DNA of 59,857 nt, the filler included, from Sluysia triapertura (Eukaryota): the NCBI GenBank assembly GCA_046118255.1. It is 4 parts of 4 records of this genome, joined end to end, with 100 filler letters (N's around TTAATTAATTAA, not from the genome) between each part and the next. Parts side by side here need not be neighbours in the genome. Positions count along the whole stretch, not along the records: positions 1 to 20,207 come from JBJNIA010033266.1; 3 more parts are not named here. The stretch is one strand, 5' to 3'. The stretch's first letter is position 1. Each line of letters starts with the position of its first letter. Below, one piece after another: positions 2,852-55,827 of the stretch. Made by a program: the position numbers and the translations under genes. Below the pieces are notes generated by a model, which ran no database searches, was not told where the DNA came from, and saw only the letters and a list, made by a program, of their open reading frames with translations.

Positions 2852-4437
2852 TCTGAAAGAAAATAATATTTTATGGTTTTGCAAATGAAAGTGAATATTA
2901 AAATTGAAAGAATATAAAATCCATGTATTTATGTAATAATAATGATAATGTTGTAAATCAATTATTGTTATTCAAACAATTGATAATCAAGCAAGATTGA
3001 TCGATAATCTTGTAAAACTTAATACGAATATTAATTATTTTATGGATATTTTAAACAATTATAGTAAAATAATTTAATTAAAGAGAAAAATTTGCTGCTA
3101 AAGCAGATATACTTATTATTGGCCAAAAAATAACATTAGAGAAGTGATCATATAATGCACATACAAGTTACTTATAAATCTTGATAATATTATCGGAATT
3201 CCAAAATAATAATTAGTATAATTTTAGTTGATAAAGCAGGTAATAAATTGTATAATATCATAAACAAAATTATTTGTAGTTCTAAAATTGAATTAAATTT
3301 AATCTACTGGGGTTACGTGTGGTTACTTGCACTATATTTTATATATTAAAAGTTTGTTTTATAAATTTTATTCATTTATTGTTGTTAATTTGAAACTGAA
3401 ACATCAGAAACAAGTTAAATTCGGACTTTTAGAATAAAACTAATAAATAAATAAACATTAAATGCCGTTACTTAAGAATCATTAAATTAAAGTGATTTTA
3501 TCTGACGAATAATTTATTAAACAAATTCGAACAATATTAGCATGAATAATATTCGATGAAATATTAATTTACGAAGCAACGAATTTATTACCAAATTATC
3601 ATAAGAACAATAATAAAAATAATAATAATAACGGTAGTAACTATAAAATTGTTATTGCTACTATCGAGATCTTTCGTGATAAACAGTTCGTAAACAAATC
3701 ATAAATTCTTGAAATCTGATTTGCTAATAAACCATTATGACCTGTAACATATTGGTTCTATTTTATTAAACACAATGGTGCTATAGATTTTTTTAGTTAT
3801 AATTTCTTCTTTTGATGATGTTTTGCCTGATGAATTTTAAACCAGAATTAGTGTTTTAGTACTTGGAATTGTATCTGGAATTTTATCAAAATTTCTAGCC
3901 AGTTTTATCATAAGAATAAATAAGACAACTTTCATCACAAATTCTTTCTTTACCATTACCATTTATTGTCACTTTATCTTCAGAAATATAAATATTATTT
4001 GATCTTGTGGAATGAGAAAATAATTTAATATTGTCATGATTTAAACACTGATTTGTATTAGTTCTGTCATTATTTGAAGACTTTACATAATTCACTTTTA
4101 ACATACTGAACGTATTTAATTTTACTGTAATATATCATCATGATGAATACACATTTATTTTATAAACATAACCGAAATATAATAATTTTAATAATTTTGA
4201 ACAGTGTGAAACACTTCAAAGCAGATTGATAGATGCAAAGGTACTTTGAAGTGTTTGTATTACCAGGTAGTCTCGTTTCTAGTGGTGTGGTGATAACAAA
4301 CGAGGCATCTTTTTGCTAGTCAATTGTTACGCGAGCACTAATCACAGTTAGGTATTGGCGTAACGCAAGCGCACATTACTGCAAGAAAAACACCACGAGT
4401 AAGACTTGTCATCTGTAACTTTGGTTATTCATATCGA

Positions 4438-4475
4438 TGACGAGTCTCACTCGTCAAATGTACCCAAAGGGTTAA
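4438..4475 (+). mobile_element. piggyBac-like right terminus
   Basis: Subterminal palindrome TGACGAGT-ctc-ACTCGTCA followed by CAAAGGG|TTAA (GGG end plus TTAA target site). Confidence 0.6.
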
Positions 4476-4977
4476 ACACTAATTTTATTCCAGTTTAATG
4501 ATATTTTGATTGAGTTATTCCAAACTTTCGTTGTGGTAGTAGATAATAGGAACTACTCTTATGATAAAATCCACTCGAAATGGTACAATTTTTATAAAAA
4601 ACATGCCAAGTTTTTCAAAGCATTTCAAAGCTCTTTCGATAGAAAAAGAAATATAAAATCTTGAACATATTAATCCCAGTTATTGTTACGTACGACACAA
4701 AGAGTGGTTGGTATTATTTAATAAATAATCAAATTCATTATTTTGCAGGTTTACATTGAGGAACAATAAAAACAAAAAAAGACAATTACAAGAGTAATAA
4801 TAATAAAACAATGTTTTCGCCCTTATTTCAATTTTGTTATAATTATTAAATTTTATTAATCATTATTTCATTTATTGTTAATTTTTATTTAAATATTATA
4901 AAACTTAATTAATTACAAAATTGCGGAAACCCTGCAATAATGAAAGTATGTACGAAACTTTATAAAAATCAACATAC

Positions 4978-5226
4978 CATATGCGTCAAAAGTTGTGGAA
5001 GCGAAAAATTCAGGATCAATAACACAAGTAACATTAATTGAACCATTAATACCTCTCGTAGCACTGTACGGGATAAATATGCTATTGTAAGATAATCGTT
5101 CAAATGTTACGTTTGATGGGTTAAGATAAAAAAAGGCCTTTGCCTTTGGATAAACTGACAGTGTCTTGCAATAAGCGATCACGTCGCTAAATCCCACATA
5201 TTCTATTTCTACCCAAATACTGTGAG
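4978..5226 (-). CDS. Open phase-1/phase-1 exon encoding a divergent Ig-like domain
   Basis: gcag acceptor and gtatgt donor, 249 nt with no stop; VIAYCKTLSVYPKAKAFFYLN...INVTCVI (C..YP motif plus second Cys). Confidence 0.6.
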
Positions 5227-6344
5227 CTGCATAATAAATGAACATTATTTTATTTTAATTTATTAATTAATATAATTAATTAAGATAATATTGTTTGAAT
5301 ATTACAATATGCTAATTTTCTAAATTAAGAACAATTTTCTTAATCCTTTAAATACGCGTCACATCAGTAGCTTTCTAATGAATTTACTTGTTTTAATAGC
5401 CGAATAACGCTTATTGTCGCTGCATACATGTTGATTATTTATGTTAGCGCTTGGATATATCAGTCGTATACAGTACATGATAGGGTATTTTAGATTTGTT
5501 TGTATCACCACGTCTATTACGTACTTAGAATTATGGATAAATCATTTACTCGACTAATCGCTTCATCACTTTCATTCGGATTTCTATGTTTTTCGAAGTC
5601 AGTCGTTATCGTTATTTTTATACTATGGGTACAACATAGTATCAATGAGTTTACTAAACTATATAAAAGACGTAATTAAATTCCCAATAAGATTCGATCG
5701 ATTTAACACCAACCCACACACACAAAAAAAGTCTTTGTAGATCATGCTGCCACTTCAATCATAAGAGACAAGCAACGACCACTATCAGAAACATTGCAAT
5801 TTTTCTTGGTCGTAAACAGTATTATATTTTAAATTTCAAAGAATTCGCTTCGGCACTTTTTATTTGTTTTCAAATTGGTTTATCAGCTGAAAACCAAAAT
5901 AATCTTTCTCTAAAATATCACCTAAATCAGGAACATAAACGTTTGCCTGCTTTCTCCATTATCATTCGATATACATCAAAGGAACAATGACAATGTAATA
6001 TGTTTGAACATATAAACAATTATAGAACATAGTATTGTATTATACTATGATTATCGATTATATTGAAAATTTTTGTTGGAATTTTATGATTTTTATTTCA
6101 TTGGAATTTTATATATGTATTATTAAATGTAAGTATTTTAAATTTAATTTTGAATTTAATAAATTTAATATTTAATTATAAAATGAATTTAACTAACGAT
6201 AACCAGCTTTGTTTTCATAAATTAAAATATAATTGTGTCAAGGTTATTTTAATTTTAGTATGAAATAACAACGTTTCAGTAGATAATTTCATAATTCTTT
6301 CTACAACCTAATTGGAATTCGCCTTTTTCAAATTACGAAAATTT

Positions 6345-6940
6345 GGTTATCGTTAGTTTAATTTCATTAGGTTTCGCAACACTTTAGCCACTGAGTAAAA
6401 TTTACTTAAAATATCTCTAATTGAAATTATAGTTAAGTCAGTAAAATCTTGTTTTTTTTATTAACAAATAATGAAAATAAAATATTTATCCTTTATTGTA
6501 TTTTTCTTTAAACATGTTGTGTGTTTTATGTAATATATTTTCTTAATTTTAACATACAGTGAAATAACAAATATCTCCCACATAAAATATTTGATAACAT
6601 CTTTAATAATTGTTTTTGGGTTCGTTTTAAGAACCATAGTAAAATAACAAATTTTTAAAAAAAGGTTTCATTTAAAAAACCGAAGTAAAATCACATTTAA
6701 AATCTTTTTTCAATGTAACGGTTTCTTTTAATTTCGAAACCAGAGAAAAATCTAATCAAATTCTGTTTAAAGAGAGAATCTGTGTAAACTAATATACATT
6801 TAAAACAATTAGCCTATTTGATTTTTCCAGGTTCTATTTAATAAAGAACCTTAGCAATATACCATAATAAAGATAAATTTCACCTTAAAATCAAACCAAA
6901 AGGATTCTGGTTGTATTTACTAAAGAGCCACAGTAAAATA
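6345..6940 (+). repeat. Dispersed repeat, copy A, with stem-loop/AGTAAAAT array
   Basis: Aligns by eye to the reverse complement of about 35840-36245; six GGTT..AACC-type hairpins at 6619, 6664, 6720, 6760, 6829 and 6908, each followed after 2 nt by an AGTAAAAT-like octamer. Confidence 0.8.
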
Positions 6941-8337
6941 CATCGCACTTAATGTAATATAAATTTATTCTGTCAAAACTCTATAAACTTCATTTCTCAC
7001 AATAATAATCATTGATCGATTTTTTTAATGACTACATTTAACAAATCAGATATTTTTATTAATAACATGGTATCAAAACTTAGTATAAAACATCATAATT
7101 TTACTAAATTTTTTTCGGCATTAAGTTTCCTTTTTAATAATGCTTTTATGCAGCACACACAAAACTCATAAGGTTTGCTCCAATGAAAGATGAAGTGACA
7201 AAACAATTCTAAATAATGCATTAAATATCACACCAAATAAGGTCCTAGATTAAATTATTTATTTACGACTTAATAAAAAGTTATGATTATTATTTTTATT
7301 ATTATTGTGAAAAATGACGATGATTTTGCAAATACGTTATTGTATTGTATAATTTTAAGGTTCTATGAAATATGAAATGTTTAAGTCCGTGGATGAAACT
7401 GTTAGACATATTTAACATTTAAATTAATGGTCAAAATAAAGACGAATGTTATATCTATCTGACATTCATAAAATTTAATTCAAACACCTAATCTAATCCG
7501 TAGACAGTAAGAGTGTTCATAAAAATGGTATAAGTAGGCAGCGTTGAGTTTAAAAAATCGGTTTCCAGCACACTGCAGTTTTACAAATTCGTAAACTAAA
7601 GGTTAATGCATCGTTGAACTGGTTTAATGAATAACATTAAGTGGTAAAATGAGAAATGTATAACGATCTAGTTGATTACTGTTAAGAATTTTGTTCGATT
7701 GTGTCAGTGTGCTTTAGTAAAATTAGACGTTGTGAATTGAGCAATCACAAAAACAATTTTCGTAAATAAATTAAATGAACCAATCATTTTTTGTCACTGC
7801 AGATGCACATATTAATGTTATTTAATATGTTAATTGGTACACATTGAATAATTTATCAAGATAATTAAGTCTTAATATTGGTGAATTTCAGACAATTTTA
7901 CAATTACCATTCAAAAAGAAATCCATTTCGAAGATATTCAATTAAAAATGAAAAATATTGCTAAAAATAGGAAAAGTTTTAAAACATTTGTGAAAACAAG
8001 ACATGAAAAATAAAGTTGCCGTCACAATGATAATGATAATAATAACAATAGAGAATTGTTATTGGTTGACGAAATAGGATAATATTTAAACTCATTTCTA
8101 TGCAATGATAATTAGAGTAATTAATAACTAGGGAAAACTTATCATAACTTTAGTTTAATTGAACAGTATTTTGATTTGCTAAAAGAACTTAAAATTACGT
8201 TAAAATAAACAACTACTTAAACTCGATTTACTGAGACATGTACACGCCTAAAACCATAGTCTTAAGTAAACAGAGTTTTAGATTCGTTATGCGCCTGACG
8301 TAATAACACAAATATAAATAAATATTTGATCACTAAC

Positions 8338-8640
8338 GCAGAATCTTGAACACGGAATGCTCAGTTATAATTTCTGTAACATTTATCATTTCTTCTCCAA
8401 ATATTAAATCTATGATCATATACGAACATCGCACAGTCTCAGTAAAAGTATCAAACTCTGTTACGTATAAAGAACCGTTTTGCAATACGATACCTTTTAG
8501 ATGAGGATCAACTTCGTAAAACGTTGATCCACTGACTGCATCTTGATTAACCACTAAGTTGCACATTAATAAAAATTCACTTTGATTTGTGAAACGGTAA
8601 ATCCATTCAAACACTGGTACAGCATCGTAAAACGTGACAA
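8338..8640 (-). CDS. Open phase-1/phase-1 exon encoding an Ig-like domain
   Basis: ttcag acceptor and gttagt donor, 303 nt open; FLLMCNL...VLQNGSLYV...TVRCSY (NGSLxI-type E strand, two Cys). Confidence 0.65.
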
Positions 8641-9309
8641 CTGAACAATAAGTGATACTACTGTTAAGATATTCTGTAAGACTTCGCGAATAGTTTTATT
8701 ATTATTATTATTTTTATTATTAATTTTATAATATTTAATTCATTATTAAAATTGTTATCGTCATCCTCATTGATAAAAATATGAAATGGGTGCTTAATGC
8801 AGGTAAAAAAATTTATTATTATTATTATTATTATTAGTGAAACTATAATCATAAAAGTAACAAGAGTATGCTTTATTAATTTTAAAAACATAAAAAGACG
8901 GCACAGCATGTCTTAGTTCATATAGCACGATTGAATAAGGATAAATAGAGATTTCATTTATTACGTTAAATTTACTACCTGCATTGTCCAAGAACAAAAT
9001 TAAATGCCTTCTAACTTCAGTAAAAGCATTAAATAGCATTTAAAAAGTCACTTAAAACATTCCACCCATTATCGAATAACATTAAAAACACAAGTTCACA
9101 ATTCCTTAATGCTCATTTATTTAGATAACTTCAAAAATGTCAAGAAATATTAAAGAATATAAGGAAAGTTCGTGTTAAGTAATCTAAAGACTTTATGAAT
9201 TTATAACAATAATAATAATGAAAACATTGTTATTATTATTATTATTATCATTTTTATTTTTAATTATTTTCAACTTTTAATTTTAATTTTATCATATGAC
9301 CAGAAATTA

Positions 9310-9464
9310 CCACTATCAATGGTGACACTATTGGTTACTATGTATAAATTCCTGTCACCATTGATAGTGGCTTGTCTGTCAATCATGTCCCTCCAAACGG
9401 TATTACTGGTTGTCTAACCAGAGTGTACTTGATCATTATTTTTATCACTCTGGTTGAACAACCA
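9310..9464. ncRNA. Pair of long hairpins (candidate pre-miRNA-like or cis-structural elements)
   Basis: Perfect 18-bp inverted repeat 9310-9327/9353-9370 (25-nt loop) and 17/19 inverted repeat 9407-9425/9446-9464 (20-nt loop). Confidence 0.45.
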
Positions 9465-10039
9465 ATCAAGATGATTTCTTATTTATTGTGATGTGCGTAT
9501 TGGTGGTTGATGGTAATTTGATTTGTGCAAAGAGTATAGTCAGAAATGTTAACAAATTTAATTTACAAATTAAACGATACAAATAAAATTTTACTGGTTA
9601 TAAAATTCTACTGGTTATAACTAAAAGTTAACCTATAAGTTTCTTTTTCATAATTGAATATGAATGGTGATGAATGTAAATAAAATCCTCTTCTGCTAAA
9701 GTTGAAAAAACTGTATGATTTAAAAATTGAAAATTATGATGAGCTATTGGACGATTTTCAATGAATGTGGTTTAAAATTGATAAATTAAGTAATAGTGAT
9801 AGTCATGAACGCTAGCAACTTTTATACATTAGTAGTTCAAATAAAATCAATGATATTCTCATTTATTAGGTTTACTTACATGTCCATTATCATAGTTTCG
9901 ATGTCAATGCTTCAAAAGAATTTATTAATAAAAATCTGGAATAGGCTTTTACTTCTATAAATTACTATAAAAATATATTCAATGTTATGAAATGTGAAGT
10001 TAGTAATTTGAGAATTCTCATCACCAGTTTCACAATCAT

Positions 10040-10336
10040 ATGAGATTAAATACTGACAACTATATCAATATATTTTCTCAATATTATTCGATTTTAAAAG
10101 CGAAAAGATCAAATGAAAATTTAAAAGGCATACACTTTTATAAATTTATGATGACAATTTGTACAGAATTATTGGAAAACAATAAAGATAAATTTGAGAT
10201 GGTTCAAGGGATGTTGAGTTTCCGAGTGGAAGCAGGTGTGGAGCTCGCACCGATAATGCTTATGGCCGATATACGAGTTAAAGTGGATAATCTATCAAAC
10301 ACAAATATCATCAAATTGTTTATTCAAGATCAATGA
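10040..10336 (+). CDS. Unknown ORF, probably the frameshifted upstream part of the CCCH gene
   Basis: 98 aa open; its stop overlaps the next ATG (ATGA); degenerate coding-like sequence extends back to about 9660. Confidence 0.4.
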   Translation: MRLNTDNYINIFSQYYSILKAKRSNENLKGIHFYKFMMTICTELLENNKDKFEMVQGMLSFRVEAGVELAPIMLMADIRVKVDNLSNTNIIKLFIQDQ

Positions 10337-10917
10337 GTACAGGCCTAAATTTAATTTCAAATAAAGTTCTGCGGTTAAATATATCCCAGTTAAGTATTGA
10401 ATATAAAGAAAAATGTAAAGAAGATTCTAAAATACTTTCTGTTTATCATTGTACTGTTCCTTTTAAATGTCGTTATTTTTGCCATATATCCAAGAATGTA
10501 ATGTACCTTCCATCGGTTCCTGGCCATTCAATGTTTCATAAATATTTCAATAATGCATTAAGTTCAAGTCAACGTATTAGAACAGCACTTTGCCCATATA
10601 CTAGTGACATAAATGATAGATGCATAAAATTCGGAGTTAATTGCGTATACGCGCACGCTGTTAATCAGTTATCAAATCATAAATTCAATTATATGTCTAA
10701 CATAGATCATGTGGTTAGAATTACAAATCTACTCGAATGTATAGGAATATCAGCTTCAGAAATATTCGGCAACGTTGGATCTATGGCTAATCACACAGTA
10801 AATAAATTCTATATTTACACAAATCCTAATTTAATGAAAAGTACCACACAGAGAATTATCTACTTTAACATTCAAAAATTTAAATTTTATATGTCAAATA
10901 AAAATTTTAGTGTTTAA
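10333..10917 (+). CDS. CCCH zinc-finger protein (TTP/ZFP36-like lead-in), intronless, possibly partly decayed
   Basis: RIRTALC-x9-C-x6-C-x3-H (CPYTSDINDRCIKFGVNCVYAHAVNQL) resembles RYKTELC...CQFAHGxxEL; a second Cys/His cluster CKEDSKILSVYHCTVPFKCRYFCH lies upstream; 194 aa open. Confidence 0.65.
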   Translation: MSTGLNLISNKVLRLNISQLSIEYKEKCKEDSKILSVYHCTVPFKCRYFCHISKNVMYLPSVPGHSMFHKYFNNALSSSQRIRTALCPYTSDINDRCIKFGVNCVYAHAVNQLSNHKFNYMSNIDHVVRITNLLECIGISASEIFGNVGSMANHTVNKFYIYTNPNLMKSTTQRIIYFNIQKFKFYMSNKNFSV

Positions 10918-11199
10918 GCATTATTAGTTATTATTTTTAAACCTATAAAATCATTGCTGTTATTAGATTTTATAAAATTTAAATTACGTACAAGATTGTA
11001 AAGATTAAGATAATGTATTGTCGTAAAAACTTATTCTCATAAATTAAAGTTGATCTTTTTATTAAATCATTTTAAACCTCAACAATGTTCATTCTTGTGC
11101 GCACATTGCACACAATTAATTTCAGTTTGTCATATTTTGTACAGCACCAAATACTGCGCACAGAGACTTGCAAAAATTAGTTACAGCTATTTATAGTAA

Positions 11200-11710
11200 A
11201 ATCGAATTTATTTACAAAAAAGGAAGAAATCTTCATAAATGTTTTCTTTTGAGAACACTGCGACACACTTTCTGGCAAGTGTCCTCTGAATGCTTTTTTT
11301 TGTTTATTTTACGCTTTTAGCATAAAATGCGTTTTTTAGAAATCCACATAGTAAAAAATCAAGCAGCTTCAGATTCAGAAATCTGGCAAGCCATTCGATT
11401 GGTCCTCGGCGTCCAATCCAACGGCCAGGAAATGTTTCATCAGCCATTGTCAATCATGTTTGGTGTAGTGCACATGTGCTCCGTATTGTTGAAAATGGGG
11501 TAAATCTTTAACAATAGGAAACACTTTAGACTTCAGCATGTAACGTTCACCATTAACAGTCCCTTCAAATTTGGATACAAGATTGAACATTGTCGACTTA
11601 CTCGGTACAGATTTAAATTCACTGGATTTTAAAACTAATTTTTCTGTACTATTTTCGTAAATTCTAGCTTCCTTGGTCCTAGCTATATGATCTACCCTAA
11701 AAAGCAATTA
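11200..11710 (-). mobile_element. Deleted Tc1/mariner-superfamily transposase remnant (DUF4817-type N-terminus)
   Basis: PSKSTMFNLVSKFE, FQQYGAHVH (FQQDGAPxH) and FPGRWIGRRGPIEWLARFLNLKLLDFLLCGFLK (WPARSPDLTPLDFFLWGYLK). Confidence 0.85.
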
Positions 11711-12599
11711 GGGTCTGTATCCAGCTATTTTTTAATTCGCCATTTATTAAGACTATAATAATAATAATTATTATTATTACTATTATTATTATTTCAGTGA
11801 ACTCCTAATAATCACAAGCAAACACTGCCACAAATCAACACATCTTGCATAAGCAAGTTATTAAATAAACTACAACAGATCAAACCACTAGTCAATACAT
11901 ACAAAACATAAATACAGTCCTAATAATATCATGATTGTCCAAATCTGTTATATTATTATCGTTGTTGCAAGATTTTGACTACTGTTTTTCTTTATGATTG
12001 TATGAATGTGTCTATGTTATTGTATTTTTATCACTATTATTATTGTTATTACTTCCACTAATACTAAATATGGCTAAATACGATATTTCTGAAACAGAAA
12101 GAACTTTATTTTGTTTTAAATATTTCATTAATATCTCTTTCTAAATAACATAAAATAAGTCCTCAAATCGCTTAAAATATTTTTGAAGCATATAGAGAGA
12201 GAGAGATTTGTTTGAATTATGAATTATTAATATGAATTATTATTAATGATTGAATTGATATGAAAATAATAAATTAAATCTATTAAATTCTAATGTTATT
12301 TCAATGTGTAATATATTTGATATTTCTACATTTCTCATTTCCATTAACGTATTTTGAAGATGATTACCACATACTCGAAAATGGAGGTATCAATGTTACA
12401 TTAAATCATGTATATGTGAACACGAATGCAATTAATGGAGTAAGATGCGTTATATTTCGTTATAATGTATCTAGCTATTAAACTTATTAATATAAAGTTA
12501 TTTTTTCAATACTTTTTTTACTTAAATGTTTATATTAAACTCTGTTCATATTGAACAAGGTTGGCTGTATGTAGTAATTACAATACAAAAAAAGCTTAC

Positions 12600-12827
12600 T
12601 TTCTATATCTCGATCTATTGGAAGATACATATAAAGTATTCTACATTCTAAGTCCAATCTAAATTTTCCATACTTGTAGAGATCTTTTAGTAAACCGTTT
12701 TTGTATACAACATTTTTAGTAAGCACAATAACTCTTAACAAATTATTATAATACGCGTCAAGCAGAACTTCACAAATTAAGTGTAAATCATTCCCCAATA
12801 CTTCAAGAAAGAATTTCAGATCAGGTG
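12600..12827 (-). CDS. Open phase-1/phase-1 exon, divergent Ig-like domain
   Basis: caag acceptor and gtaagc donor, 228 nt; PDLKFFLEVLGNDLHLICE...LDLECRI. Confidence 0.5.
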
Positions 12828-14065
12828 CTTGAATTATAAAATTTAATTTAAATTCTTAATTCAGTTATAGTAAATTATAAAATTTTAGAGATTAAAATGA
12901 TTAAAATAAATAAATTTTTTATTCATTTTGTTCCAAATTTGAAATTTTTACTACTTGTTTACGAATTTAAATTTACGAATTTATATTAACTAAGTCCTTC
13001 AAAACTTGCTTTACAATATTTTGATATAATTCAATTGAAGTACCACGAGCAGTAGGCTCGCTTCTTTTGAATAAATTAATTTTATGCTGCATCTTTAAAT
13101 TTAGATACTATCTAATGATAGAGAGTAATGACTTCATGTTTTTTTAAAAGGAATTACATTAACTCAAATTTTACCTTTTTCATTTTTTTAGCGAAAAATT
13201 CAGAAATGCCATAAAATTGACAGTATTTATCGTACATGAATATTATGCATCAATAATATAAAATTGAAAACATAGATTAAATTAAATAGATAAATTATGT
13301 TGCAAGAGAATATTGATAAGCAAGATTATAATTCAAAATCATGACAGTAATTTACAAATGCTTACATTACGGAAGTCTTGAATATTTTTTTAGAAATAAT
13401 AAAGAAATTTGAAACCAAGATGAATATTTCATTGAGACAATAATAATCTATACAGAATCCACATTGATAATAAGCTAGATGATAGGTTGTATACCGTTTA
13501 TGTTTCAAAATATACAATCAGAATGTCAAATTACTGGAATATTATGAAATATTTAAGAAAAAGACAAAGTTGTTTCTGTTTCAGAAATATTATAGTGATA
13601 TTATAGTAATATTATAGTACTTACTTTGCAGTAGATATGAGCGCAATATAANNNNNNNNNNNNNNNNNNNNNNNNNNNNNNNNNNNNNNNNNNNNNNNNN
13701 NNNNNNNNNNNNNNNNNNNNNNNNNNNNNNNNNNNNNNNNNNNNNNNNNNNNNNNNNNNNNNNNNNNNNNNNNNNNNNNNNTTAAACATAATACTCATTT
13801 TTACTATTAACATTTTGTAAATAAATAATGTTCATTATAAACTCATTTATTTAATGATATAATGAAATAAATGTTGAAATCATTATTATTCATCTTAAAA
13901 TATTAATGCTTAAAAAATTACAAAGATTATAATGCCTTAGTATCAATTTAAAATGAGATTACATATAATTAATATAAATTTAAAATTTAATAACTTTTTC
14001 ACACAAAATTATACACTAAAATCGATAAATTGATTCATTGTAAATTGAAGTAAACGTCGGAAATA

Positions 14066-14720
14066 TTAGATTGGTGCATAAATTCGTGCGGTTTTATTTG
14101 TAGCAAAGAAAGCACACCAACTTCTTGTTTTAACTGATTTCAGTTATATTCATTCAGTTGAATTATATCTATTTAAATCATTTTAGACTAACTTTCACTT
14201 TCATTACCCTCATTTAAATGGAGTGTCAGGTAGATAAAAATGAACATTTTTGGTATCTACTCCTTTTCTATTTTAATCAACATTTAAACGCTGCACAAGC
14301 CAATAATTTTACAGCATGACAATGCTCGGTCTCATGTTGCCACAATGACAAAGTTGGCTTTTGAAGAGCGTGGCTGAGAATTCCTCCCAATACCCCGTAT
14401 TCGCTCGACTTGGCATAGCCCCAACAGATTTTCATCTTCTCCGCTCCATGTCGAACCATTTTTGTGGTCTCACATTTGAAAATGAAGAAACAATAACAAC
14501 GTGGATTGAAGAACTATTCGACCAAAAATCACCAAGTTTCTTCAAACGTAGGATTGACAAACAGCCAGAACGGTGGAAGGAAGTGATCGATTGTGGCGGA
14601 TAATATCTCACCGATTGAGACTGAGATATTTGTATTTTCTAATGATTTAATAAATTCATTTTTGCATGGTTTTCATTCTTGATCAATATGTATTGTTTTC
14701 ATAATTGTAAAAAACCACTA
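14066..14720 (+). mobile_element. Internally deleted mariner element
   Basis: TA followed by TIR TTAGATTGGTGCATAAATTCGTGCGGTTTT; MECQVDKNEHFWYLLLFYFNQ, LQHDNARSH, IAPTDFHLLRSMSNH, RWKEVIDCGG. Confidence 0.92.
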
Positions 14721-15614: not shown

Positions 15615-16060
15615 CAGTGGTGGCCAAATTATTAGATTAAAACAAGAAAAATATGAAAAGTGGTCGTTTGTAAAGAAAACATCAGCGAGAAATGATAGAT
15701 ATTTGGTGAAACTTTCCACCAGCATGACTTTGCTGAAACAGTAAGAGACTAGCGGAATTCACGTTAGTCCAGAACAGTCAGGACAATGATTTGCCAGATA
15801 GACGACCCAGAAAAAAGCTTAGGTTGGCATGGTTTAAGGAAGACCAACATTTAACTGAGGATGACTGGAGTCAAGTGTGTTTTAGTGACGAGTCGTCCTT
15901 TCAAGTACTGAATGGCAAGACCACTTTTACAAAGAGACTTAATGAGGAGTTTGTTCATAGAAACTGTGAAACATCCAACTTTTGATTAATAGCTTCCTAG
16001 TATCCTTGAAAAATGTTAAATTTTATCAAAAAAATGGTTGCATTTATCTAATAATTTGTC
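15615..16060 (+). mobile_element. Deleted Tc1-like element
   Basis: TA followed by CAGTGGTGGCCAAATTATTAGA TIR; RKTSARNDRYLVK and RLAWFKEDQHLTEDDWSQVCFSDES (first D); partial right TIR TCTAATAATTTGTC near 16046. Confidence 0.88.
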
Positions 16061-20207: not shown

Positions 20208-20307
20208 NNNNNNNNNNNNNNNNNNNNNNNNNNNNNNNNNNNNNNNNNNNNTTAATTAATTAANNNNNNNNNNNNNNNNNNNNNNNNNNNNNNNNNNNNN
20301 NNNNNNN
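20208..20307. other. Artificial contig-join spacer
   Basis: 44 N + TTAATTAATTAA (stops in all six frames) + 44 N. Confidence 0.97.
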
Positions 20308-21292
20308 TTTATTTATTTTAAAAATTTCCGAACCCTTCACCATTTTTAAATGTAATTTAAAATCTTAATCTAAAATATTTTCCAAACTTTTAAAATAAAT
20401 TATTCTTAAGATTTTTAAATTCAATTATTATCATTAAGATTATAATGCTTTTACATTACTTTAAAATGAGATTCAATGGAATTAATATAAAATTAAAATT
20501 TAATAACAAATATTAACCAATATAAATTGCAACCAGATAAAACCATTATTTTAAAATAAGATTCTATAATGACAATATGAAATCAAATTTTGAGAACATA
20601 AAATCCAAGTAAAATTATTAATACATAAGTTAAAATTATATTAAACTGAGATTGAATAACATTAGTATGTAATTAAAAATTAACATTATCCTCAATCAAA
20701 ATTAACTTAAATTAAAGAATAGGCAGAGTAAGAGAATAATGTGATGTCAAATTTAAAAGCATCATAATTATCTTAAAATAAGAATGAATATTAATTATAT
20801 GTAATCAAAATTTAATAGTGTTGAATAGGATAAAATTTAATAACTGTAAAACTAATTGTATATTCAAGAGAAATACTATTTTTATGCATTGCTATTGATT
20901 TATCATATACTAACTAATATTACTCATTGTATCTGCTACCACTATTGTTGCTACTGCTATTTAATTATTGTGTATAATCTACCGTATATATCAATCGCTA
21001 TATTGAATTTATTATATACTACTAATAAAAATTAAATTATATAATAAAAATTTTCACAAAGAACAGTATAAATATCGCTGCAGTATAAACGTCGGAACCA
21101 CATGATCAAATTCAAGCTACCAACTATCAAAGGAGGTTTTAAATTCATCGTGGAGCGATATATTATTGTCAATTCATTAACATCAACGTTGACTTATTGA
21201 CTTATTAATGATACGACTCTGAAACATTTGTAGTACACGCCAATAGATGTAAGATGGCACCAAGTTAAGAAGTTAAAAAGTCATTATTAAAA

Positions 21293-21880
21293 GTGAAACC
21301 GAAAATAAAAGATCGCGACAAACCACCTTCAGTCCAATCGTCGGTTGACAAGCAAATATTAATGATGTTAAATGTTTCAACTGGTGTACGAACACACATT
21401 TTTCAAAATGTGCGTTTCAATGGTAGATGGATTCGAGCCGTTATTGATACAGGAGCCACTACATCCGTAATACACTATAATATTTTGACCACATGAATTT
21501 GGATCCGCAAAATGCAACAATTTATAACGTAGAACAAACACCAACACATGAACGATATAATGCATGGGCACTTAGACATATTGGATCAACGAGTAAATGT
21601 ATATATACACGTATGAGGAGATTCTCATTTTGATCTAATAATTGGTTTAGACATAATTGATAAATTGGACGATATAGTAATACGTAGTAAATATGGTTTT
21701 ATAAAATTTCCACAAGGAGCACAGATGATAATACCTCAGATTGTCATTCCGCACATCGGTGACGAAATTACCTTATACGAAACTCCAATTCATAATCTAC
21801 TGGCACAGTACTGCTACCTGATCGACTATCTGATATGTTATGGGACAACTCATCTATTATTTAATCATTGTCATCTGTAA
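21293..21880 (+). pseudogene. Retropepsin (retroviral-type aspartic protease) ORF with three in-frame stops
   Basis: Single frame: NGRWIRAVIDTGATTSVI (catalytic DTG at 21446)...GDSHFDLIIGLDIIDKL (ILGxD motif). Confidence 0.85.
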
Positions 21881-22432
21881 CGAGCGAATTTTCGGAATCA
21901 GGAATTGGCTCTTGACAAAGTAATGCTTACATTTACTAAGGCGAATAATCATAAGAAATCACGATGGACGACATTACCAATATTACTAGTTTTATTCCTA
22001 TCTCTAATTAATTTTGTTAAATCTATAGATATTGAATAAGTTGAGGAATATAGAAACTAATAAATAATAATGGAAAATAACAAAAAACATCAATCACTAA
22101 CATTTATAATTAGTATTGGGAAATAAAATTTAGTTCGAAGAAAATGTTTTTGCGACTTAAATTTGATATATATTGCATTTATCTAGAGCCGTTACTAGTT
22201 GGTAAACCGCACCATGTAGATAAGACTCCGCATAGTTTACAATACGCATTGGCATTGGACACAAAACGAAACACGAGGAAGGTGCAAAATATTACAAATA
22301 AATATGTGAATAATTGCACATCTGCATTCAAAAATAATAATAATCCATGAAACGATATATTGCCTAATGTTGTCACGTTAATATATAAACTAATTCCTAT
22401 TTCGGTAATTCTTATAGTAATATCCTCAATTT

Positions 22433-23160
22433 GTGATTGATTTTAGTAGAAAGATATGTGTATTCGCAGTTAACAAAAATCTGATACTATTAATGTTAAT
22501 TACCAGAGTACAGTGTAATACATACGATGTACAAATTTATAAAACCGAATATTTTGAATTTCGTAATTATGATACGGAAGTTAGAGTTAAAGTATTCAAA
22601 ATGACATTCAAGTTAGATTTATGTGTTTAAACCAGCTCGACTTAGCTTTAGTTCATAGAACGTACAGGAATATATTAATAATTGGTAAATCCCATTGTTC
22701 TATGTACTGATTTCTTGGCTAATGAAGAGCGACATATTATTGCTAGAATATTTGTTGCACCAGCAAAATTAGAACAATTGTATTTTCCATTAAAGGGAAC
22801 ACGGAAATATCTATCGTATCAGAAATGTTAAAAAATGATCCAGCTCTATTAATATTAGCAGCAATACTATTTATCATCACTTTATCAATAGTTATAGTAG
22901 TGAGTATTATGTTTGTTCAAACAGATGAAGATATTGGTGTTTACCTCCAAATAATGACGATAATCGGTATACCATAAATACATAGAAGTAATTATGAACT
23001 GCCACCATGATCTCCGTTAAGACCACCTCCTGTTTGTGAATATGCAACAGGCAACAATTCACCTTTAATGTACAGTGGTTGGCAAATGACAAGTTTACAG
23101 TGTGTCATGTTAGCATGGATGTGTATGACTTGTATAATTAATGTGCATACAAAATAAATA
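22433..23160 (+). pseudogene. Decayed intronless type-I membrane protein ORF
   Basis: Signal-like LILLMLITRVQC, an ectodomain, a frameshifted TM segment PALLILAAILFIITLSIVIVVSIMF, then a Tyr/Pro tail NYELPP*SPLRPPPVCEYA. Confidence 0.5.
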
Positions 23161-23553
23161 ATATTTAGACCATGGTCTACGCTTAAATCACTTCAGCGAA
23201 TTATATACGCAGAAATATTGTATTGTAGTTTTGTGATATTGATAATATCTCTATGAGTTGCTGTTTGACTAATACAAAATATTGGATAGCAGCTTGCGAT
23301 GGTCTTGTAGAAAATCAATTATTTAATATTGGTAGTGTTTTCTTAAACTTATTCACTGCAAATTATCTGAGAAGTCGCCTAATATATACGATTTACACCA
23401 CTAATTGGAGACGTACTATTAGGTTTTCTTAATTACATTTAACTTATGCCTTAGACTTATCTTTTATATTAATCGCTTGAAGTACTTAAATCAATTTATA
23501 TTGCAATTCTTTATTAGATATTGTTTAATTAAACTTTTATATTTTTATACTTA

Positions 23554-23825
23554 CGCAACCCGTATTAAGGTGTTGCTTTATCAAACAAATTTTAAATTAA
23601 TAAATAAGAAAGACACTTAAAATCCTTAATGTATATTAACACAACTAAAAGTCGAACGCTTACAAAAGTGACTTATAATAAAAATAAGATTTTAAATCAA
23701 CTACTCAATTGGCATTGTAGCTATCAAATATTTTAATAAGATTTTTCGCAACCCGTATTAAGGTGTTGCATTAAAAATAGGAATATTTTTAATGTATTTT
23801 GGGTTTCCTCTCTTAGAGTGAAACC
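23554..23825 (+). repeat. Two identical 23-nt hairpin units plus a GGTTTC/GAAACC hairpin
   Basis: CGCAACCCGTATTAAGGTGTTGC at 23554 and 23747; GGTTTC..GAAACC at 23802-23825. Confidence 0.85.
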
Positions 23826-23950
23826 ATAAAACTTATTAAAATAAAAATTACTTGTGGTACATGGAATTGAAAATATTAAACAAAATCTTCTGGAATTTTT
23901 TTTGTAATTGTTATGTTAAAAGCTTACCTATTTATATCTATTTAATCCAA

Positions 23951-24769
23951 TATGTCTTCCAATGAATTTAATTTGAAACGTTTAAACAAATTTAAATTTA
24001 TTAATTTGAAAAATAAATATTTAATAAAAAATTTGTATATTACATATTAGACATAAACATTTACATCGACAATATTACTTTAATTTTGGAAGTCGAATAC
24101 GAACCAAATCAAAATTCGAAAATTATATCAATACACAATTACAAAATTTGAAAAAAGCCTTATGTTTTTGATCAACTTTCGACGATTATCAAATTTCCGA
24201 TGCTATTTAAATAAAGAGAGTAATAATTTCGTTCGCATAACAAATCATTTAACAGAAAACACTATATTAATCGGTTACGAACTGGATACAGAAGATCATT
24301 ATGCACTAATACTCCTCAATGTTTCTTCATCTATCTTTTGTACCAGGACAACCTTACATTTATTGAGGTTTGGATTCTACGTTACAATGAAATTCACGAT
24401 ACACTGGGATTTTGGCCAGAATATAGAGTATGCGACTTAAGCGTACCAATTTTAGATAAATTGGATATTACTGCTACTTCAACACCAGTCATTACTACTA
24501 CTGCTACTTCAAATAAAGTAAATGTCACACATAATACTACGACTATAGGTTATTCTGTCAATATAGTTAAGAATTTAAGTGTACCGAATAAAAATCATTT
24601 ACAGGAAAATATAACAAATGACTTTATATTAAAACTTTATCATGTTATATTTAGTTACTACATTTTCACTTCGTTTCTTTTTCTTACAACAGCAGTACAT
24701 ACTATATTTCAGACTCATAAGTTCTACTTATTTATTAGGCATAGGAACCACTTGTTTATTAAAACTTAA
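23951..24769 (+). pseudogene. Frameshifted ORF for a membrane glycoprotein (Thr-rich stalk, C-terminal TM)
   Basis: Overlapping ORFs 24162-24440 and 24338-24769; TATSTPVITTTATS, sequons NVT/NTT/NLS/NIT, hydrophobic VIFSYYIFTSFLFLTTAV. Confidence 0.5.
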
Positions 24770-25779
24770 AAAATAAAGTATGAGTGATAATATCTTCTGT
24801 TCACTGACCATATGTGATGGATGTTAACTATCCATTTTTGGTCGCGAAGAGAGTGATGTTGGAACTCGTATTTTATAATTAGACTAATATTATTGTAGTA
24901 AACAATTTGTTCATTTATTCTAATATAATTAATTATTCATTTTTCTCACTTCTATAAACTTTCTGTGTATATAACATAATAAATTTTCTAAGTATTTATA
25001 TTAAGTATAATTATTAGCTTATTATTAGCTTATTTTTCTGTTCAGACAGACTTCGCCAACTTCGCTTCGTTTCACTGTACGGTCAATCTGTAGACGCTCT
25101 ATCCACAGATATTATGCTTTAACTATACCTTGTAGACAGATTTTATTTTAGTTGTCTTTATTTTTTGTTGGAAACATCCCCAACTCCTTTTCTTTCTTGC
25201 CCTATGAGCCGCACTACAATTAAGGAATTTGAAATTTACTACAAAAATATTTTTCACTGCTCATACGAATTTACCATTAAATATACTACACCAAGTTCTT
25301 CTATAATAACACAAAAACTCCACTATAGATATTTTCCAACCTGTTAATACAATAAAGGTTCATGTCTTATATAATGGATTTCGGCTGCCTAAATCTGATT
25401 ATCCACAGGGACGACAATTAAAAAAATTTTATAATAGACATTTATCTCAAGAAAGAAAAAATTATTGCTTCATAAAAAATTATTTAATTATAGTGCTATG
25501 ACACGTGAATAAAATTTTTGCTTCTTCTTTATTTTTTGTGTATTCTTTTTCCTTTTTAATTTCATTCTATTACCAGAATAACAGTTATCAAATCCCAATC
25601 AACAATACCAAATCCTCCAACGATTCATCCCAAAGCAAAACTAATTACCCAGATCAAATCTTTTTACATTTTACGTTTTACTATACAATTTTGTTCGACT
25701 CTCTAAACCTATTTTCTTTTCTGACTCCTTTTCAACTGATTGACAGTTGAAAAGTGAATTGACACAAAATATGAAGAAT

Positions 25780-44899: not shown

Positions 44900-45800
44900 C
44901 TAAATATAGCTTGCCATCTGTTTTATTTGTTTCCTAAATATTTGAAAATAAGATAAATAAAGGAATTGAAAAATCATAGTGTTATAAAGTAAAAAAGCGT
45001 TAATTACTTTAATATTACGATCGTTATTGTGATGAATTGGATTTGAAGTCAATTCACTTATCAAATTGTGAATTATATTAAGGTGACCGAATGAATTTGA
45101 ACCCAAGCCAAAATTGATTTTTAATTCGGCAACATTATGTGCGTACATAGGTTACTTTTCATATCTGGAATATATAAGGGCAAATAACGGTTTTAAAATA
45201 AAAAAGAATGTTCGTTATTTAGTAGAACAACTTTATATGTTTGAAGTTTCATTATTCTTGTGGATGGTGTTGACAACTTGACTATATTGTTCGTTCTAAC
45301 ACTATCGATGTCTACTATAAATTCGTATATCCTTCTAATATCTTTATGATGAAGACAGAAATGTCCAGATTGTTGTCAGTTACTGATGATTAATAAACGA
45401 AATTTTTGATTAACAACATTTGGTGCAAATACATTTGTTCAGAAGCACGGAGTTTTTTGATTTAACATTAAAGATACTAAAACTATTATGCGAATTAGTA
45501 CTTCTTTCGATAAAATATGTTATTCCTTTTTCTTTAACAATCTCATAGAGAGGATGAACCTCTTGCTTTTTCTTGCACGTACGTATTCCTTGTATGGCAA
45601 ACGCAAACATTAATTCTTTATCCTTTAGATGATTATTGACGTGAATTAAATGTGAATCATAAGTTGTAGTATCTCGATTTAATCTAATGTCTAAATAGGA
45701 AAAATCTAAATAGTTTAATTATTGATACATGATATTCAGATAATCATTTATTTTAATAGGCAACGTTCGTTGACCACAATTACCCTATATCATAAAATTA
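44900..45800 (-). pseudogene. Decayed paralogue of the 10.0-10.9 kb CCCH gene
   Basis: YFKTVICPY (45200-45174), frameshift, MYAHNVAEL (45148) versus RIRTALCPY...VYAHAVNQL; GHFCLHHK versus GHSMFHK; similar position downstream of the homologous hairpin. Confidence 0.6.
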
Positions 45801-46064
45801 TTTTTTATAAGTCATGCAATTGCCATTTTTGATCATAATTCAACATCGAGTGGCTGCATTGTATTCGTTCAAAAATTGTTCATATTGTTCAAATTGTAAA
45901 ATTGTTCATATTTTTGTTAGACTGTAATAATTGCTTTTTCATTTGCATTACCTTGTCCAGCAAAATTTAGTAATAATAATATTGTGGCTACCTCTCCATG
46001 TAAACCATATAAGAAAATTTATTATTTTTTACCAATTATTGCTGATATTTGCTCTATATCTGAG

Positions 46065-46258
46065 TGGCTGCCCAATGAAAACGCTTATAGTTGATGTTGT
46101 AAATAGTCTTAATTGGGCAGTCATCCAAACACTGTAAAACACACAATAACGGCATTAGAAATAAGTAAAATTAAAATGAGTAAGCCACTATCAATGATGA
46201 CAAGAATTCATACATAGAAACCAATAGTGTCGCCATTGTGATAGTGGTAATTACTGGT
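46065..46258 (-). ncRNA. Second copy of the hairpin pair
   Basis: 46182-46258 is the reverse complement homologue of 9299-9373; second hairpin TGGCTGCCCAAT (46065) / ATTGGGCAGTCA (46112). Confidence 0.5.
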
Positions 46259-47916
46259 TAATATAATTATTAAAGTACCAGACTAATGAAAAATAAAAAT
46301 GGTTATAATTATAATAATAGAAATACTGTTATTATTATTATTATTTTTATCTTCTCAACATATTTTAAAGTTCTTAATTTAGTTGGCGTTCCTTTTTATT
46401 TCTTTATTTTAAATTGGTTATATAATGTGATCTTACTATTTGAATTTTTTTGATAAGTTTTAAATGTATATTTGGTGGTTCTGAATAAGATAAAGTTTGG
46501 ATGTTAAAAACTATGAATAAAAATGTTTTGCGATATGAAAAATGATTTTTGTTAATCTGAAAGAGATAAATTATAGCAAGGGTTTATATACATTCTGAAA
46601 GTAGTTGTGATATGTTGACAAATGTACTTATGATCGTGCTGTTATGTAATTATGAATAAACTGTTTTAAAATTAATTTTTGTAGATCCTTGATGATTTTT
46701 GGTATTAGATGAAAATTGATGTTACGAAATTTATGTCTACAATGTTTAAGGTTGTCATGGATTATGAATGGTTGTAAATTATTGAGTTGGCCACCACAAA
46801 AATGATAATGAAGTTGAACATGAACGGAAATTGCTGTCGAAATTCAATCAGTAAAATTCGTCGGCTTATTACCGACTAAAAGAGTGCAGGGAGCATTAAT
46901 TTCTGCTTGTTCAATTTCTTATTTTTAATTTCCAAAATCATCATAAAACTGTCACACAAACAATTACATTTTTGCAAAAAATTAGAAGTAAAAACGACAG
47001 AGACAAGAGTTAGAATCAATATAACAAAACATTCTAGCTGTTGATACATTGCTTCAGTTAATCAGTTGATAACGGTGAAATTGCAATCGGCTAAAATAAA
47101 CCATTTTTATAAAATAGGAATAAGAGTTAGTAACCTATTTATTATTGATTGTATTTTGTATTAATACGTGCGCCCAAATTTATCTTGGGTAACTTGTGTC
47201 ACTCCTGGTTGTGATTTGTTATTAAAGAATAATTTGTATTGTTATTGTTATAAAGAATATATGTTGTAATCTTGTGATAATATAAAAAATTATATCGAGA
47301 TTTTGAATTTATTTAATTATTTAGTTTTAATTGATAATTTAAAAAAGCACTAAAGACACTATAATGGCCGTTGAGCGTTATTTCTATTAATATTAATTAA
47401 ATTGTAAAAATTCAAAAGGATACTGTGCAGATTTTGTGTAAAAATCCATAAGTTAATTTCATAAACTGGTAAAACTTTTTCGTCAATTTTAAAATTTTTA
47501 TCAATAACTCTAACTTGAAAAATTTTAAACATTTTTTAAATAAATATAAGTGACATATGCAAAACAATCTTTAAAAATTAAAACTTATCTTCAAAACGCA
47601 AAAATCATATACATAAATCATATACACAAATTATACATTTTTCCCTCAAGACGAACAAATTATATACATAAATTGCAAATATAAATTATAAATTTTCTGA
47701 TATACATTATTTTGACCAACTTGTAACAAAAATGGTAGCTTAAAGAGGTTTTACAAAGAGTCCGTTCAACGTTTTTTAAATATAATTTTGTCAGTTTCTG
47801 AGCAGAAACCACGGCGAGGAACTGCATGGATTATGACATTTAATATAAATCACAAGCTGCCTGCTTGGTTTAGATGATCAAAGACACTATGCTGCCAAAG
47901 TGATTTATTCAGTGTT

Positions 47917-55790: not shown

Positions 55791-55827
55791 GGGTCAAGTT
55801 TGACCCAGGAGTAATTCTTGGGTTGAA
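55791..55827 (+). mobile_element. piggyBac-like right terminus
   Basis: Palindrome GGGTCAAGTTTGACCC, then GGG-TTGA (degenerate TTAA). Confidence 0.5.

What the first reader, a model, noticed from the sequence alone, without database searches (positions are those of the whole stretch)
9299..10917. Cassette of two hairpins plus a CCCH zinc-finger gene, present in two divergent copies
Seen: hairpin A (perfect 18-bp stem) is strongly conserved at 46182-46258 (minus), while the downstream proteins are barely alignable (TALCPY/YAHAVNQL versus KTVICPY/YAHNVAEL). Both copies have a second hairpin B at the same relative position but with unrelated sequence. Established: TTP-type CCCH fingers bind RNA. 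Inference: a mobile or selfish unit pairing an RNA-binding protein with small-RNA precursors or cis-structures, for example a miRNA cluster host locus, a toxin/antidote-like element or viral cargo. Non-coding conservation exceeding coding conservation is the unusual signal.
Basis: partly seen in the sequence, partly recalled or inferred. Interest (0 to 1): 0.78.

Follow-up and report, generated by a model that had tools for sequence, protein, structure and literature searches.

The report
Multicopy hairpin and zinc-finger gene element
In an AT-rich animal genome, probably a fish-parasitic flatworm, a roughly 2-kb unit is scattered in many decayed copies; it pairs an almost unchanged stem-loop with a fast-changing gene that seems to join an RNA-tailing-like domain to an RNA-binding zinc finger, and it fits no described mobile-element family that was tested.

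Summary
Hairpin A (perfect 18-bp stem, 25-nt loop, 9310-9370) recurs at 46182-46258(-), 69 of 78 letters identical. Both copies carry a tristetraprolin/Unkempt-like finger relic 1.1-1.3 kb downstream, a motif pair found nowhere else in the window. Three corrections follow. First, the unit is a dispersed repeat: all bins from 8880 to 11165 show about 20-70 times single-copy depth, hairpin and ORF alike, and the two copies sit on separately joined scaffolds. Second, the gene is about 420 codons from 9660, not 194; 4 of its 5 early stops fall where most laid depth shows another letter. Third, its N-terminal part weakly resembles FAM46/TENT5 poly(A) polymerases (Pfam E 0.0068, copy B only). Whole-ORF homology of the two copies is weak (26 of 1000). 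No TIR, LTR, tail, Rfam family or outside relative was found. Best reading (0.5): a decayed, non-autonomous mobile unit whose stem-loop is a cis signal and whose cargo is an RNA-targeted tailing-like protein. A miRNA role is untested and less favoured, because the loop is about as conserved as the arms.

The parts
8875..9185 (+). Left arm of copy A; approximate left end of the repeat
   Evidence: Depth rises from 30-95 (7864-8879) to 1064 (8880-9133); weak colinear match to 46676-46365, 4 of 400
9186..9298 (+). AT-rich tract shared by both copies
   Evidence: 79/103 identical, z 4.5, 0 of 400
9299..9309 (.). Conserved 11-mer flanking hairpin A (reads as an AG acceptor-like site on +, as a CTRR-like end on -)
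   Evidence: 2 matches in the window, both beside hairpin A; 0.17 expected (pattern drawn from the two copies)
9310..9370 (.). Hairpin A, copy A: 18-bp perfect stem, 25-nt loop; most widely shared part of the family
   Evidence: z -5.2; point depth 6313, 80 contigs at 9352
9407..9465 (.). Hairpin B of copy A
   Evidence: z -4.9; point depth 495 at 9473
9455..9510 (+). Possible counterpart of copy B's second hairpin, overlapping the 3' arm of hairpin B
   Evidence: 10 of 12 pairs, 3 double changes; weak alone, z 0.5
9660..10917 (+). Broken intronless gene of about 420 codons in three frame pieces (9660-10037 with 5 stops, 10040-10336, 10333-10917)
   Evidence: Frames; 4 of 8 listed majority-difference sites in 9660-10037 fall in stops, P 1.5e-4; multicopy depth throughout
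9843..10370 (+). Region colinear with the FAM46/TENT5-like part of copy B (inferred; no Pfam hit in A itself)
   Evidence: 7 of 8 hand-picked landmarks on one diagonal, +34 to +47 nt; banded test 26 of 1000; no PF07984 hit
10579..10671 (+). Single CCCH finger (C-x9-C-x6-C-x3-H) with TTP/Unkempt-like lead-in and tail
   Evidence: PF25427 E 3.5e-6; best PDB matches tristetraprolin 1m9o E 0.082 and Unkempt 5elh E 0.099
46259..46676 (-). Left arm and AT-rich tract of copy B
46182..46258 (-). Hairpin A, copy B (decayed stem)
   Evidence: z -3.3; 69/78 identical to A
46061..46128 (-). Second hairpin of copy B
   Evidence: z -4.2, -5.0
45599..45826 (-). FAM46/TENT5-like N-terminal nucleotidyltransferase relic of copy B
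   Evidence: PF07984 E 0.0068 and E 0.015, residues 4-74 on profile 10-79; below the cut-off of 27 bits
45196..45408 (-). Middle piece of copy B gene, other frame; holds the third FAM46-like landmark at 45336
   Evidence: Three-motif chain unique in window, 0 in 28.2 Mb simulated (motif letters recalled and chosen after seeing B); no Pfam hit
44900..45194 (-). Finger relic (two frames, two cysteines lost) and C-terminal piece of copy B
   Evidence: DNA block z 2.6, 3 of 400

Best explanation
An old family of dispersed, intronless units of about 2.1 kb, moved in trans by machinery they do not encode (non-autonomous mobile element, or the detached accessory module of a larger element). Shown: the unit is multicopy from end to end; both window copies are pseudogenes; hairpin A with its flanks is the part shared across diverged subfamilies; the gene ends in one CCCH finger. 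Inferred: hairpin A, loop included, is a sequence-specific cis signal (recognition, termination or packaging site) held constant by the partner that mobilises the units. The cargo gene is a captured, fast-evolving FAM46/TENT5-like nucleotidyltransferase domain whose usual helical domain is replaced by a TTP/Unkempt-like finger. The finger would aim the protein at U/A-rich RNA, most simply the element's own transcript or those of its partner, and tail or shield it, so helping the family survive host small-RNA control. My odds within this reading: FAM46 ancestry about 0.7, catalytic activity in intact copies about 0.35.
For: Depth 560-2100 in all 9 bins of 8880-11165 against 30-95 in the 4 bins of 7864-8879; of 5713 laid records 3940 are under 95% alike, so copies are old and many. 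Stops of copy A are private to it: 4 of 8 listed sites fall in stops, P 1.5e-4, 0 in the two other plus frames, so the family frame was open when it spread. Hairpin 69/78 identical while ORF DNA blocks are at background. Loop differs at 3 of 25 letters, arms at 2 of 36 plus a 2-nt insertion. Finger motif pair unique to the two copies, at most 0.00075 per 2 kb by chance. PF07984 match nearly ungapped at the start of the profile; spacing from the conserved Asn to the first acidic residue is 19 codons in B (read from the translation) against Asn72-Asp90 in FAM46C (PMC8286142). FAM46 has been listed in contexts with RNase H, integrase and ankyrin domains (PMC4857005, legend of Fig. S4), a hint of earlier capture by retroelements. 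The window holds other decayed host-like relics and many transposon pieces.
Against: No TIR, LTR or target-site duplication at either copy, no poly(A) tail, no transposase, RT or Rep in the unit, so the way it moves is not shown. The FAM46 hit is weak, in copy B only, 16.1 bits against a cut-off of 27; copy A's middle piece hits an unrelated family at E 0.015 instead, so hits of this size arise by chance. Two-sequence profiles found no FAM46 chain in the PDB. A-versus-B ORF similarity is not significant without a band (22, 19 and 52 of 60 null segments score as well) and falls to 160 of 1000 with a wide band. B lacks the hG[GS] motif and the third carboxylate. Depth comes from contigs of one run that may be the window's own source and is not a copy number.
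Confidence: 0.5

Rival explanations
1. A lineage-specific host multigene family under birth-and-death evolution (FAM46-like/CCCH germline RNA regulators) whose leader holds a miRNA pair or a regulatory stem-loop; the dispersed copies are duplicates or retrocopies of a few live genes.
For: Hairpins have pre-miRNA size and stability and get sub-threshold matches to miRNA models (mir-5365 E 0.0011, 28 bits against 70). A conserved AG after an AT-rich tract just before hairpin A could be a splice or trans-splice acceptor (inference). FAM46 genes duplicated and diverged in some nematode lineages (PMC4857005 section 14). Other decayed host-like genes lie in the window.
Against: Schistosoma species hold one FAM46 each. 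The loop is about as conserved as the arms and no pair is compensated, unlike conserved miRNAs (recalled). Depth is not higher at the 3' end and no tail is seen, against ordinary retrocopies. Both copies seen are dead.
Confidence: 0.22
2. Relics of an endogenous virus or of a giant Burro-like retroelement: an accessory gene with its conserved origin or small-RNA hairpin, integrated many times by related strains.
For: Intronless gene; Atlas look-alikes by features include Nucleocytoviricota clusters at 0.86, 0.80 and 0.79 (below 0.9, recognition below threshold). Planarian Burro elements carry many host-like accessory domains (PMC6431247). Retroviral-type protease and integrase relics lie elsewhere in the window.
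Against: No relative in viral contigs, metagenomes or 1.84 billion representatives. The left flank is single-copy and the right flank is another repeat; no capsid, polymerase or LTR is attached.
Confidence: 0.15
3. A non-autonomous Helitron-like unit read on the minus strand, with hairpin A plus the CTRR-like motif as terminator and the gene as captured cargo.
For: A CTRR-like 4-mer followed by T lies 6 nt after the stem in both copies. Helitrons use a terminal hairpin, bypass it and capture genes (PMC6431247). Depth falls about five- to tenfold left of the hairpin (6313 at 9352; 1320 at 9136; 636 at 8899). No TIR or TSD is expected for Helitrons (recalled).
Against: Homology between A and B runs on for 110-430 nt beyond the motif. 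The stem-loop is far larger than usual Helitron terminators (recalled). No RepHel was seen in the window.
Confidence: 0.08
4. Hairpin A is an independent short repeat, and the downstream relics of A and B are unrelated.
For: Unbanded ORF alignments are at background; the hairpin has the highest depth of the unit.
Against: The finger motif pair occurs only behind the two hairpins, same strand, similar distance; ORF depth reaches 58-71% of hairpin depth at two sites; landmarks are colinear.
Confidence: 0.05

Closest known systems
FAM46/TENT5 non-canonical poly(A) polymerases (PF07984; FAM46C)
   Same: Weak profile match of the N-terminal 70-80 residues of copy B; similar spacing of landmarks.
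   Different: Far below cut-off; catalytic motifs partly lost; no C-terminal helical domain seen, a CCCH finger instead (not among the contexts in the legend of Fig. S4 of PMC4857005; the figure itself is a picture and was not seen); multicopy and dispersed, where Schistosoma has one gene.
Tristetraprolin (ZFP36) and Unkempt CCCH fingers
   Same: Lead-in and tail of the finger align to 1m9o and 5elh; PF25427 E 3.5e-6.
   Different: One finger, spacing x9-x6-x3; not a tandem array; no RING or other Unkempt parts.
Cargo-carrying non-autonomous elements (Helitron, Pack-type) and Burro/GYPSM1 giant gypsy elements of planarians
   Same: Dispersed, many decayed copies, conserved non-coding part, host-like cargo.
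   Different: No TIR, LTR, TSD or enzyme gene; cargo appears to be a whole gene that diverged into subfamilies; no CCCH mention in the review passages searched.
Clustered animal or viral pre-miRNAs in a gene leader
   Same: Two 60-70-nt stable hairpins in tandem upstream of an ORF.
   Different: No Rfam family; loop conserved like the arms; no small-RNA evidence available.

Membership tests
FAM46/TENT5 | PF07984 score at or above 27 bits | tested here: not met
   16.1 and 14.9 bits in B; none in A; both copies are broken and were scanned in pieces
FAM46/TENT5 | hG[GS] motif (Gly73-Ser74 in FAM46C) | tested here: not met
   B has other residues after the aligned Asn; A has a Ser at a hand-aligned site only
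FAM46/TENT5 | [DE]h[DE]h pair on the second core strand | tested here: inconclusive
   B has two acidic residues two apart at about the expected distance, with a basic residue between; A keeps one acidic residue next to a stop
FAM46/TENT5 | Third carboxylate h[DE]h (Glu166) | tested here: inconclusive
   A candidate in A at 10238-10246; absent at the colinear site in B
FAM46/TENT5 | C-terminal five-helix PAP/OAS1 substrate-binding domain | tested here: not met
   No match; the C-terminal piece holds a CCCH finger
FAM46/TENT5 | NTase fold and tailing activity | not testable with these tools
   Models had mean pLDDT 29.6; fold search gave nothing at E<=0.001
TTP/ZFP36 tandem zinc-finger proteins | Two C-x8-C-x5-C-x3-H fingers in tandem (definition partly recalled; PF00642 name gives the spacing) | tested here: not met
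   One finger, x9-x6-x3; one matched stretch
Unkempt-type finger (PF25427) | Score at or above 31.1 bits | tested here: inconclusive
   27.3 bits, E 3.5e-6
Animal pre-miRNA | Stable 60-70-nt hairpin with long stem | tested here: met
Animal pre-miRNA | Member of a curated family | tested here: not met
   0 matches at gathering score; best sub-threshold 28 of 70 bits
Animal pre-miRNA | Arms conserved more than loop (recalled criterion) | tested here: not met
   Loop 22/25 identical; arms 34/36 plus a 2-nt insertion; two sequences only
Animal pre-miRNA | Discrete arm reads with 2-nt overhangs | not testable with these tools
   No RNA holder listed
MITE / TIR DNA transposon | Terminal inverted repeats and target-site duplication | tested here: not met
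   Only short AT-rich chance matches; ends are approximate
LTR retroelement or solo LTR | Long direct repeats; gag-pol | tested here: not met
   no such Pfam hit inside the unit
Helitron (non-autonomous) | 3' hairpin followed by CTRR at the element end | tested here: inconclusive
   Motif present in both copies, but homology runs beyond it
Helitron (non-autonomous) | Common 5' TC end, A-T insertion site, RepHel partner | not testable with these tools
   No genome held
Endogenous viral element | Homology to a viral gene or linkage to viral core genes | tested here: not met
   Atlas hits below 0.9

The most novel reading that the evidence does not exclude
Parasitic flatworms, which lack the Piwi pathway (PMC8191739), host an undescribed class of selfish element: a one-gene unit, defined by an ultraconserved 60-nt stem-loop, that encodes its own TENT5-derived poly(A) polymerase fused to a TTP-like finger and uses it to tail and stabilise its own RNA or to re-tune host AU-rich mRNAs, a mobile-element-borne RNA-tailing counter-defence.
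Probability: 0.22. Interest if true: 0.87.

Novelty: new variant of a known kind. Interest (0 to 1): 0.6.

Why it matters
TENT5 enzymes lack an RNA-binding domain, and how they pick their RNA was stated to be unknown (PMC7988573 passages). A natural fusion of a TENT5-like domain to a CCCH finger would be a built-in answer and a testable model. Its spread as a multicopy unit with one invariant stem-loop would point to an unrecognised kind of mobile element in parasitic flatworms and to RNA tailing as a tool of selfish DNA. If the FAM46 link fails, it is still an orphan multicopy gene-bearing repeat with a conserved cis structure, useful for annotation but of modest interest. Ten full-text searches listed no paper on such an element; the library lacks most subscription journals and Repbase.

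Tried and rejected
No whole genome is held, so genome-wide BLAST was not possible. No RNA holder listed. Protein searches with the 194-aa piece found nothing: 25 candidates; 419 candidates; 0 of 1.84 billion at E<=0.001; one weak phage match at E 0.09 over 48 residues was set aside. Hairpin patterns: 0 in metagenome contigs, 0 in viral contigs. AlphaFold models were unusable and the fold search was empty. PPR matches of copy B are summed low scores on repeats and were rejected; dynein light chain and aminotransferase matches likewise. A first, upstream CCCH finger in A was considered and dropped: no profile match, and one of its cysteine codons is a site where most laid depth differs. Ngaro/DIRS ORF1 with a CCCH finger was a recalled lead; PMC3783388 has no such term. 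A short hydrophobic peptide can be read through hairpin A, but the A/B differences are not synonymous-biased (read), so coding constraint was rejected. CRESS-type origin: no nonanucleotide of the usual form (recalled) in the loop. Bacterial promoter scan: at chance. Earlier findings: six look-ups, nothing. The innexin search did not name the taxon.
Full report
Setting. The window is AT-rich animal DNA (GC 0.16-0.40 per kb) with an innexin gene. A GC-rich DUF1907 exon at one scaffold end looks like vertebrate host DNA. Three artificial joints split the window into four scaffolds. Copy A (8875-10917, +) lies in the first and copy B (46676-44900, -) in the third, so their 37-kb spacing means nothing. 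No genome is held.

The hairpins. Hairpin A in copy A has a perfect 18-bp stem and a 25-nt loop (z -5.2, 0 of 200 shuffles) and was the most stable of the 100-nt windows scanned. Copy B is 69/78 identical over this block (z 17.6) and 79/103 over the AT-rich tract before it (z 4.5); a further 310 nt to the left match weakly (4 of 400 real segments). B's stem has a bulge, a mismatch and a G-U pair, with 0 of 22 pairs compensated, which looks like decay. The loop differs at 3 of 25 letters, so it is about as conserved as the arms. Each copy has a second strong hairpin. B's aligns not to A's hairpin B but to A 9455-9510, which shares one arm with it: 10 of 12 pairs hold in A and 11 of 12 in B, 3 with changes on both sides. 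That is a hint only (67 of 500 shuffles; the A segment alone has z 0.5). Rfam has no family for any of them.

It is a repeat. One public run holds the stretch (X1, contigs, possibly the window's own source). Laid at 80% likeness on 3800-11400, single-copy contigs have depth about 20-34 and the four bins of 7864-8879 read 30-95. All nine bins from 8880 to 11165 read 560-2100. Point depths are 6313 at 9352 (hairpin loop, 80 contigs), 495 at 9473, 3645 at 10083, 4468 at 10202, 1969 at 10616 (finger) and 912 at 10715; 9503 reads only 34. Summed contig depth is not a copy number, and AT-rich bins elsewhere reach 200-600, but tens to low hundreds of copies is the plain reading. Of 5713 laid records over the whole stretch, 3940 are under 95% alike. 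The hairpin is the most widely shared part, by about 1.4-fold over the best ORF site, so it is not mainly a free MITE. No TIR, direct repeat or target-site duplication was found at either copy and no poly(A) tail. On the minus strand the stem is followed after 6 nt by a CTRR-like motif in both copies, but homology runs on past it.

The gene. The 194-aa ORF is the end of a longer broken gene. A frame from the ATG at 9660 runs 126 codons with 5 stops, then shifts to 10040-10336 and again to 10333-10917. One search showed 40 of 706 difference sites. Eight of those shown lie in 9660-10037, and 4 of the 8 fall in stop codons (P 1.5e-4; 0 in the other two plus frames, 0, 2 and 0 in the minus frames). 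So most other copies do not share these stops, and the family gene was open, about 420 codons if the two shifts are also decay (inferred; B reads through the second junction). Copy A is a pseudogene, and so is B.

Are the two genes homologous? Frameshift-aware local alignment gives 43 against a background of 43.5 +/- 5.9 (n 54); three other settings are also at background (22, 19 and 52 of 60); BLASTP of pieces fails. In favour: the lead-in and tail motifs of a TTP-like finger occur as a pair only at 10579/10648 (+) and 45194/45145 (-), with at most 0.00075 pairs per 2 kb in 32 Mb of simulated DNA; the finger DNA block scores 3 of 400; 7 of 8 hand-picked landmarks lie on one diagonal; a test in a band set by the hairpin gives 26 of 1000, 48 of 1000 in a narrower and 160 of 1000 in a wider band. 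I accept distant homology, resting mainly on the finger.

What the protein is. The finger is single, C-x9-C-x6-C-x3-H, closest to the Unkempt-like model (E 3.5e-6, below cut-off), with tristetraprolin and Unkempt as best PDB matches. It is not a TTP-family tandem finger. Read with X at stops, the N-terminal part of B matches PF07984 (FAM46/TENT5) at E 0.0068, and at E 0.015 nearly ungapped on profile positions 10-79. A chain of three motifs with FAM46-like spacing occurs once in the window, in B, and never in 28.2 Mb simulated, but its letters were recalled and chosen after seeing B. Published FAM46C landmarks (Asn72, Gly73, Ser74, Asp90, Asp92, Glu166; PMC8286142, passages and section 25; PMC4857005, passages and sections 14 and 17) fit B's spacing for the first two sites, but B lacks the Gly-Ser pair and the third carboxylate. 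A has no PF07984 hit and its middle piece hits an unrelated family at E 0.015. As a rough control, 6 of 57 other X-read frames had a Pfam hit at E<=0.05; one looks spurious to me and five look like real relics; those frames were chosen near visible relics, so this is not a clean null. Two-sequence profiles found no FAM46 chain, and both structure models were unusable. I put FAM46 ancestry at about 0.7 and do not file it as a member. The legend of Fig. S4 of PMC4857005 lists RNase H, integrase and ankyrin contexts for FAM46 and no CCCH; the figure is a picture and one supplementary file was unreadable, so a listed CCCH context cannot be fully excluded. No outside relative of the 194-aa piece exists in the collections searched; the N-terminal pieces were not run against the large collections.

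How it most likely works. Shown: a dispersed, old, intronless unit; a stem-loop almost unchanged across subfamilies whose genes have diverged to near background; a once-open gene ending in a CCCH finger. Inferred: the stem-loop, loop included, is recognised by sequence by whatever moves the units, as with the ends or internal signals of non-autonomous elements; the gene is accessory cargo that brings a tailing-like domain to U/A-rich RNA through its finger and so protects the element's RNA. TENT5 enzymes lengthen poly(A) tails and stabilise mRNA, and lack an RNA-binding domain (PMC7988573, passages). Parasitic flatworms lack Piwi and appear to control transposons with other Argonautes (PMC8191739, passages). 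I give this 0.5. Rivals: host gene family with a leader miRNA pair or regulatory hairpin (0.22), virus or Burro-like relic (0.15; PMC6431247, passages; PMC13524379, passages, no mention of CCCH or accessory genes), Helitron-like unit (0.08), chance pairing (0.05).

Novelty and score. Cargo-bearing non-autonomous elements are a known kind; this architecture was not found in ten paper searches (listings and abstract starts only, except the papers named above and PMC3783388, term search only) or in six look-ups of earlier findings. I rate it a new variant of a known kind, interest 0.6. The bold case, a new class of selfish element that encodes its own RNA-targeted poly(A) polymerase, has about 0.22 probability and would deserve 0.87.

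Noticed in passing
window 20208-20307, 31063-31162, 48295-48394: Three identical 100-base joints (44 N, a 12-base six-frame stop linker, 44 N): the window is four joined scaffolds.
   Followed up: yes
window 47860-48290 (-): GC-rich stretch at a scaffold end with the last exon of a DUF1907 gene (E 4.3e-22); looks vertebrate, fish-like by recall: host DNA in a chimeric join, or transfer.
   Followed up: partly
window 57771-59082 (-): Innexin gene with one short intron (PF00876 E 2.7e-42); best relative 42% identical and unnamed; flatworm-like by recall.
   Followed up: partly
window 4096-4475: High-copy piggyBac-like miniature element (TTAACCC end at 4475; depth 3400-3900, other copies skip 4184-4419) with two strong internal hairpins (4395-4455, z -6.8).
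   Followed up: partly
window 39538-39717 (+), 49979-50131 (+), 51045-51160 (+), 8333-8695 (-): Intronless host-like relics: Memo (E 2.9e-8), cytochrome b5 (E 0.02), BTB (E 7.7e-4), PTB (E 4e-4; open frame, single-copy depth, may be a live exon). The genome seems rich in diverged gene copies.
   Followed up: partly
window 12083-13590: 1.5-kb element with 53-bp inverted ends (88.7%) around an orphan frame at 12535-12855 (-).
   Followed up: no
window 21269-24870 (+): Retroviral-type aspartic protease relic followed by a run of orphan frames, one with a hydrophobic stretch and one Thr-rich, with hairpins at 22637-22726 and 24780-24870 (z -7.3); virus-like or giant-retroelement-like array.
   Followed up: no
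window 37864-38480 (+): Decayed integrase core (rve E 8.4e-5).
   Followed up: no
window 37361-37413 and 55787-55846: Further isolated strong hairpins (z -6.0 and -4.4).
   Followed up: no
window about 4813-4900, 5400-5600, 7400-7574, 11166-11400: Other short high-copy repeats by depth; Tc1/mariner-like pieces at 335-571, 11450-11707, 14349-14603, 15737-15985 (by recall; no Pfam hit).
   Followed up: no
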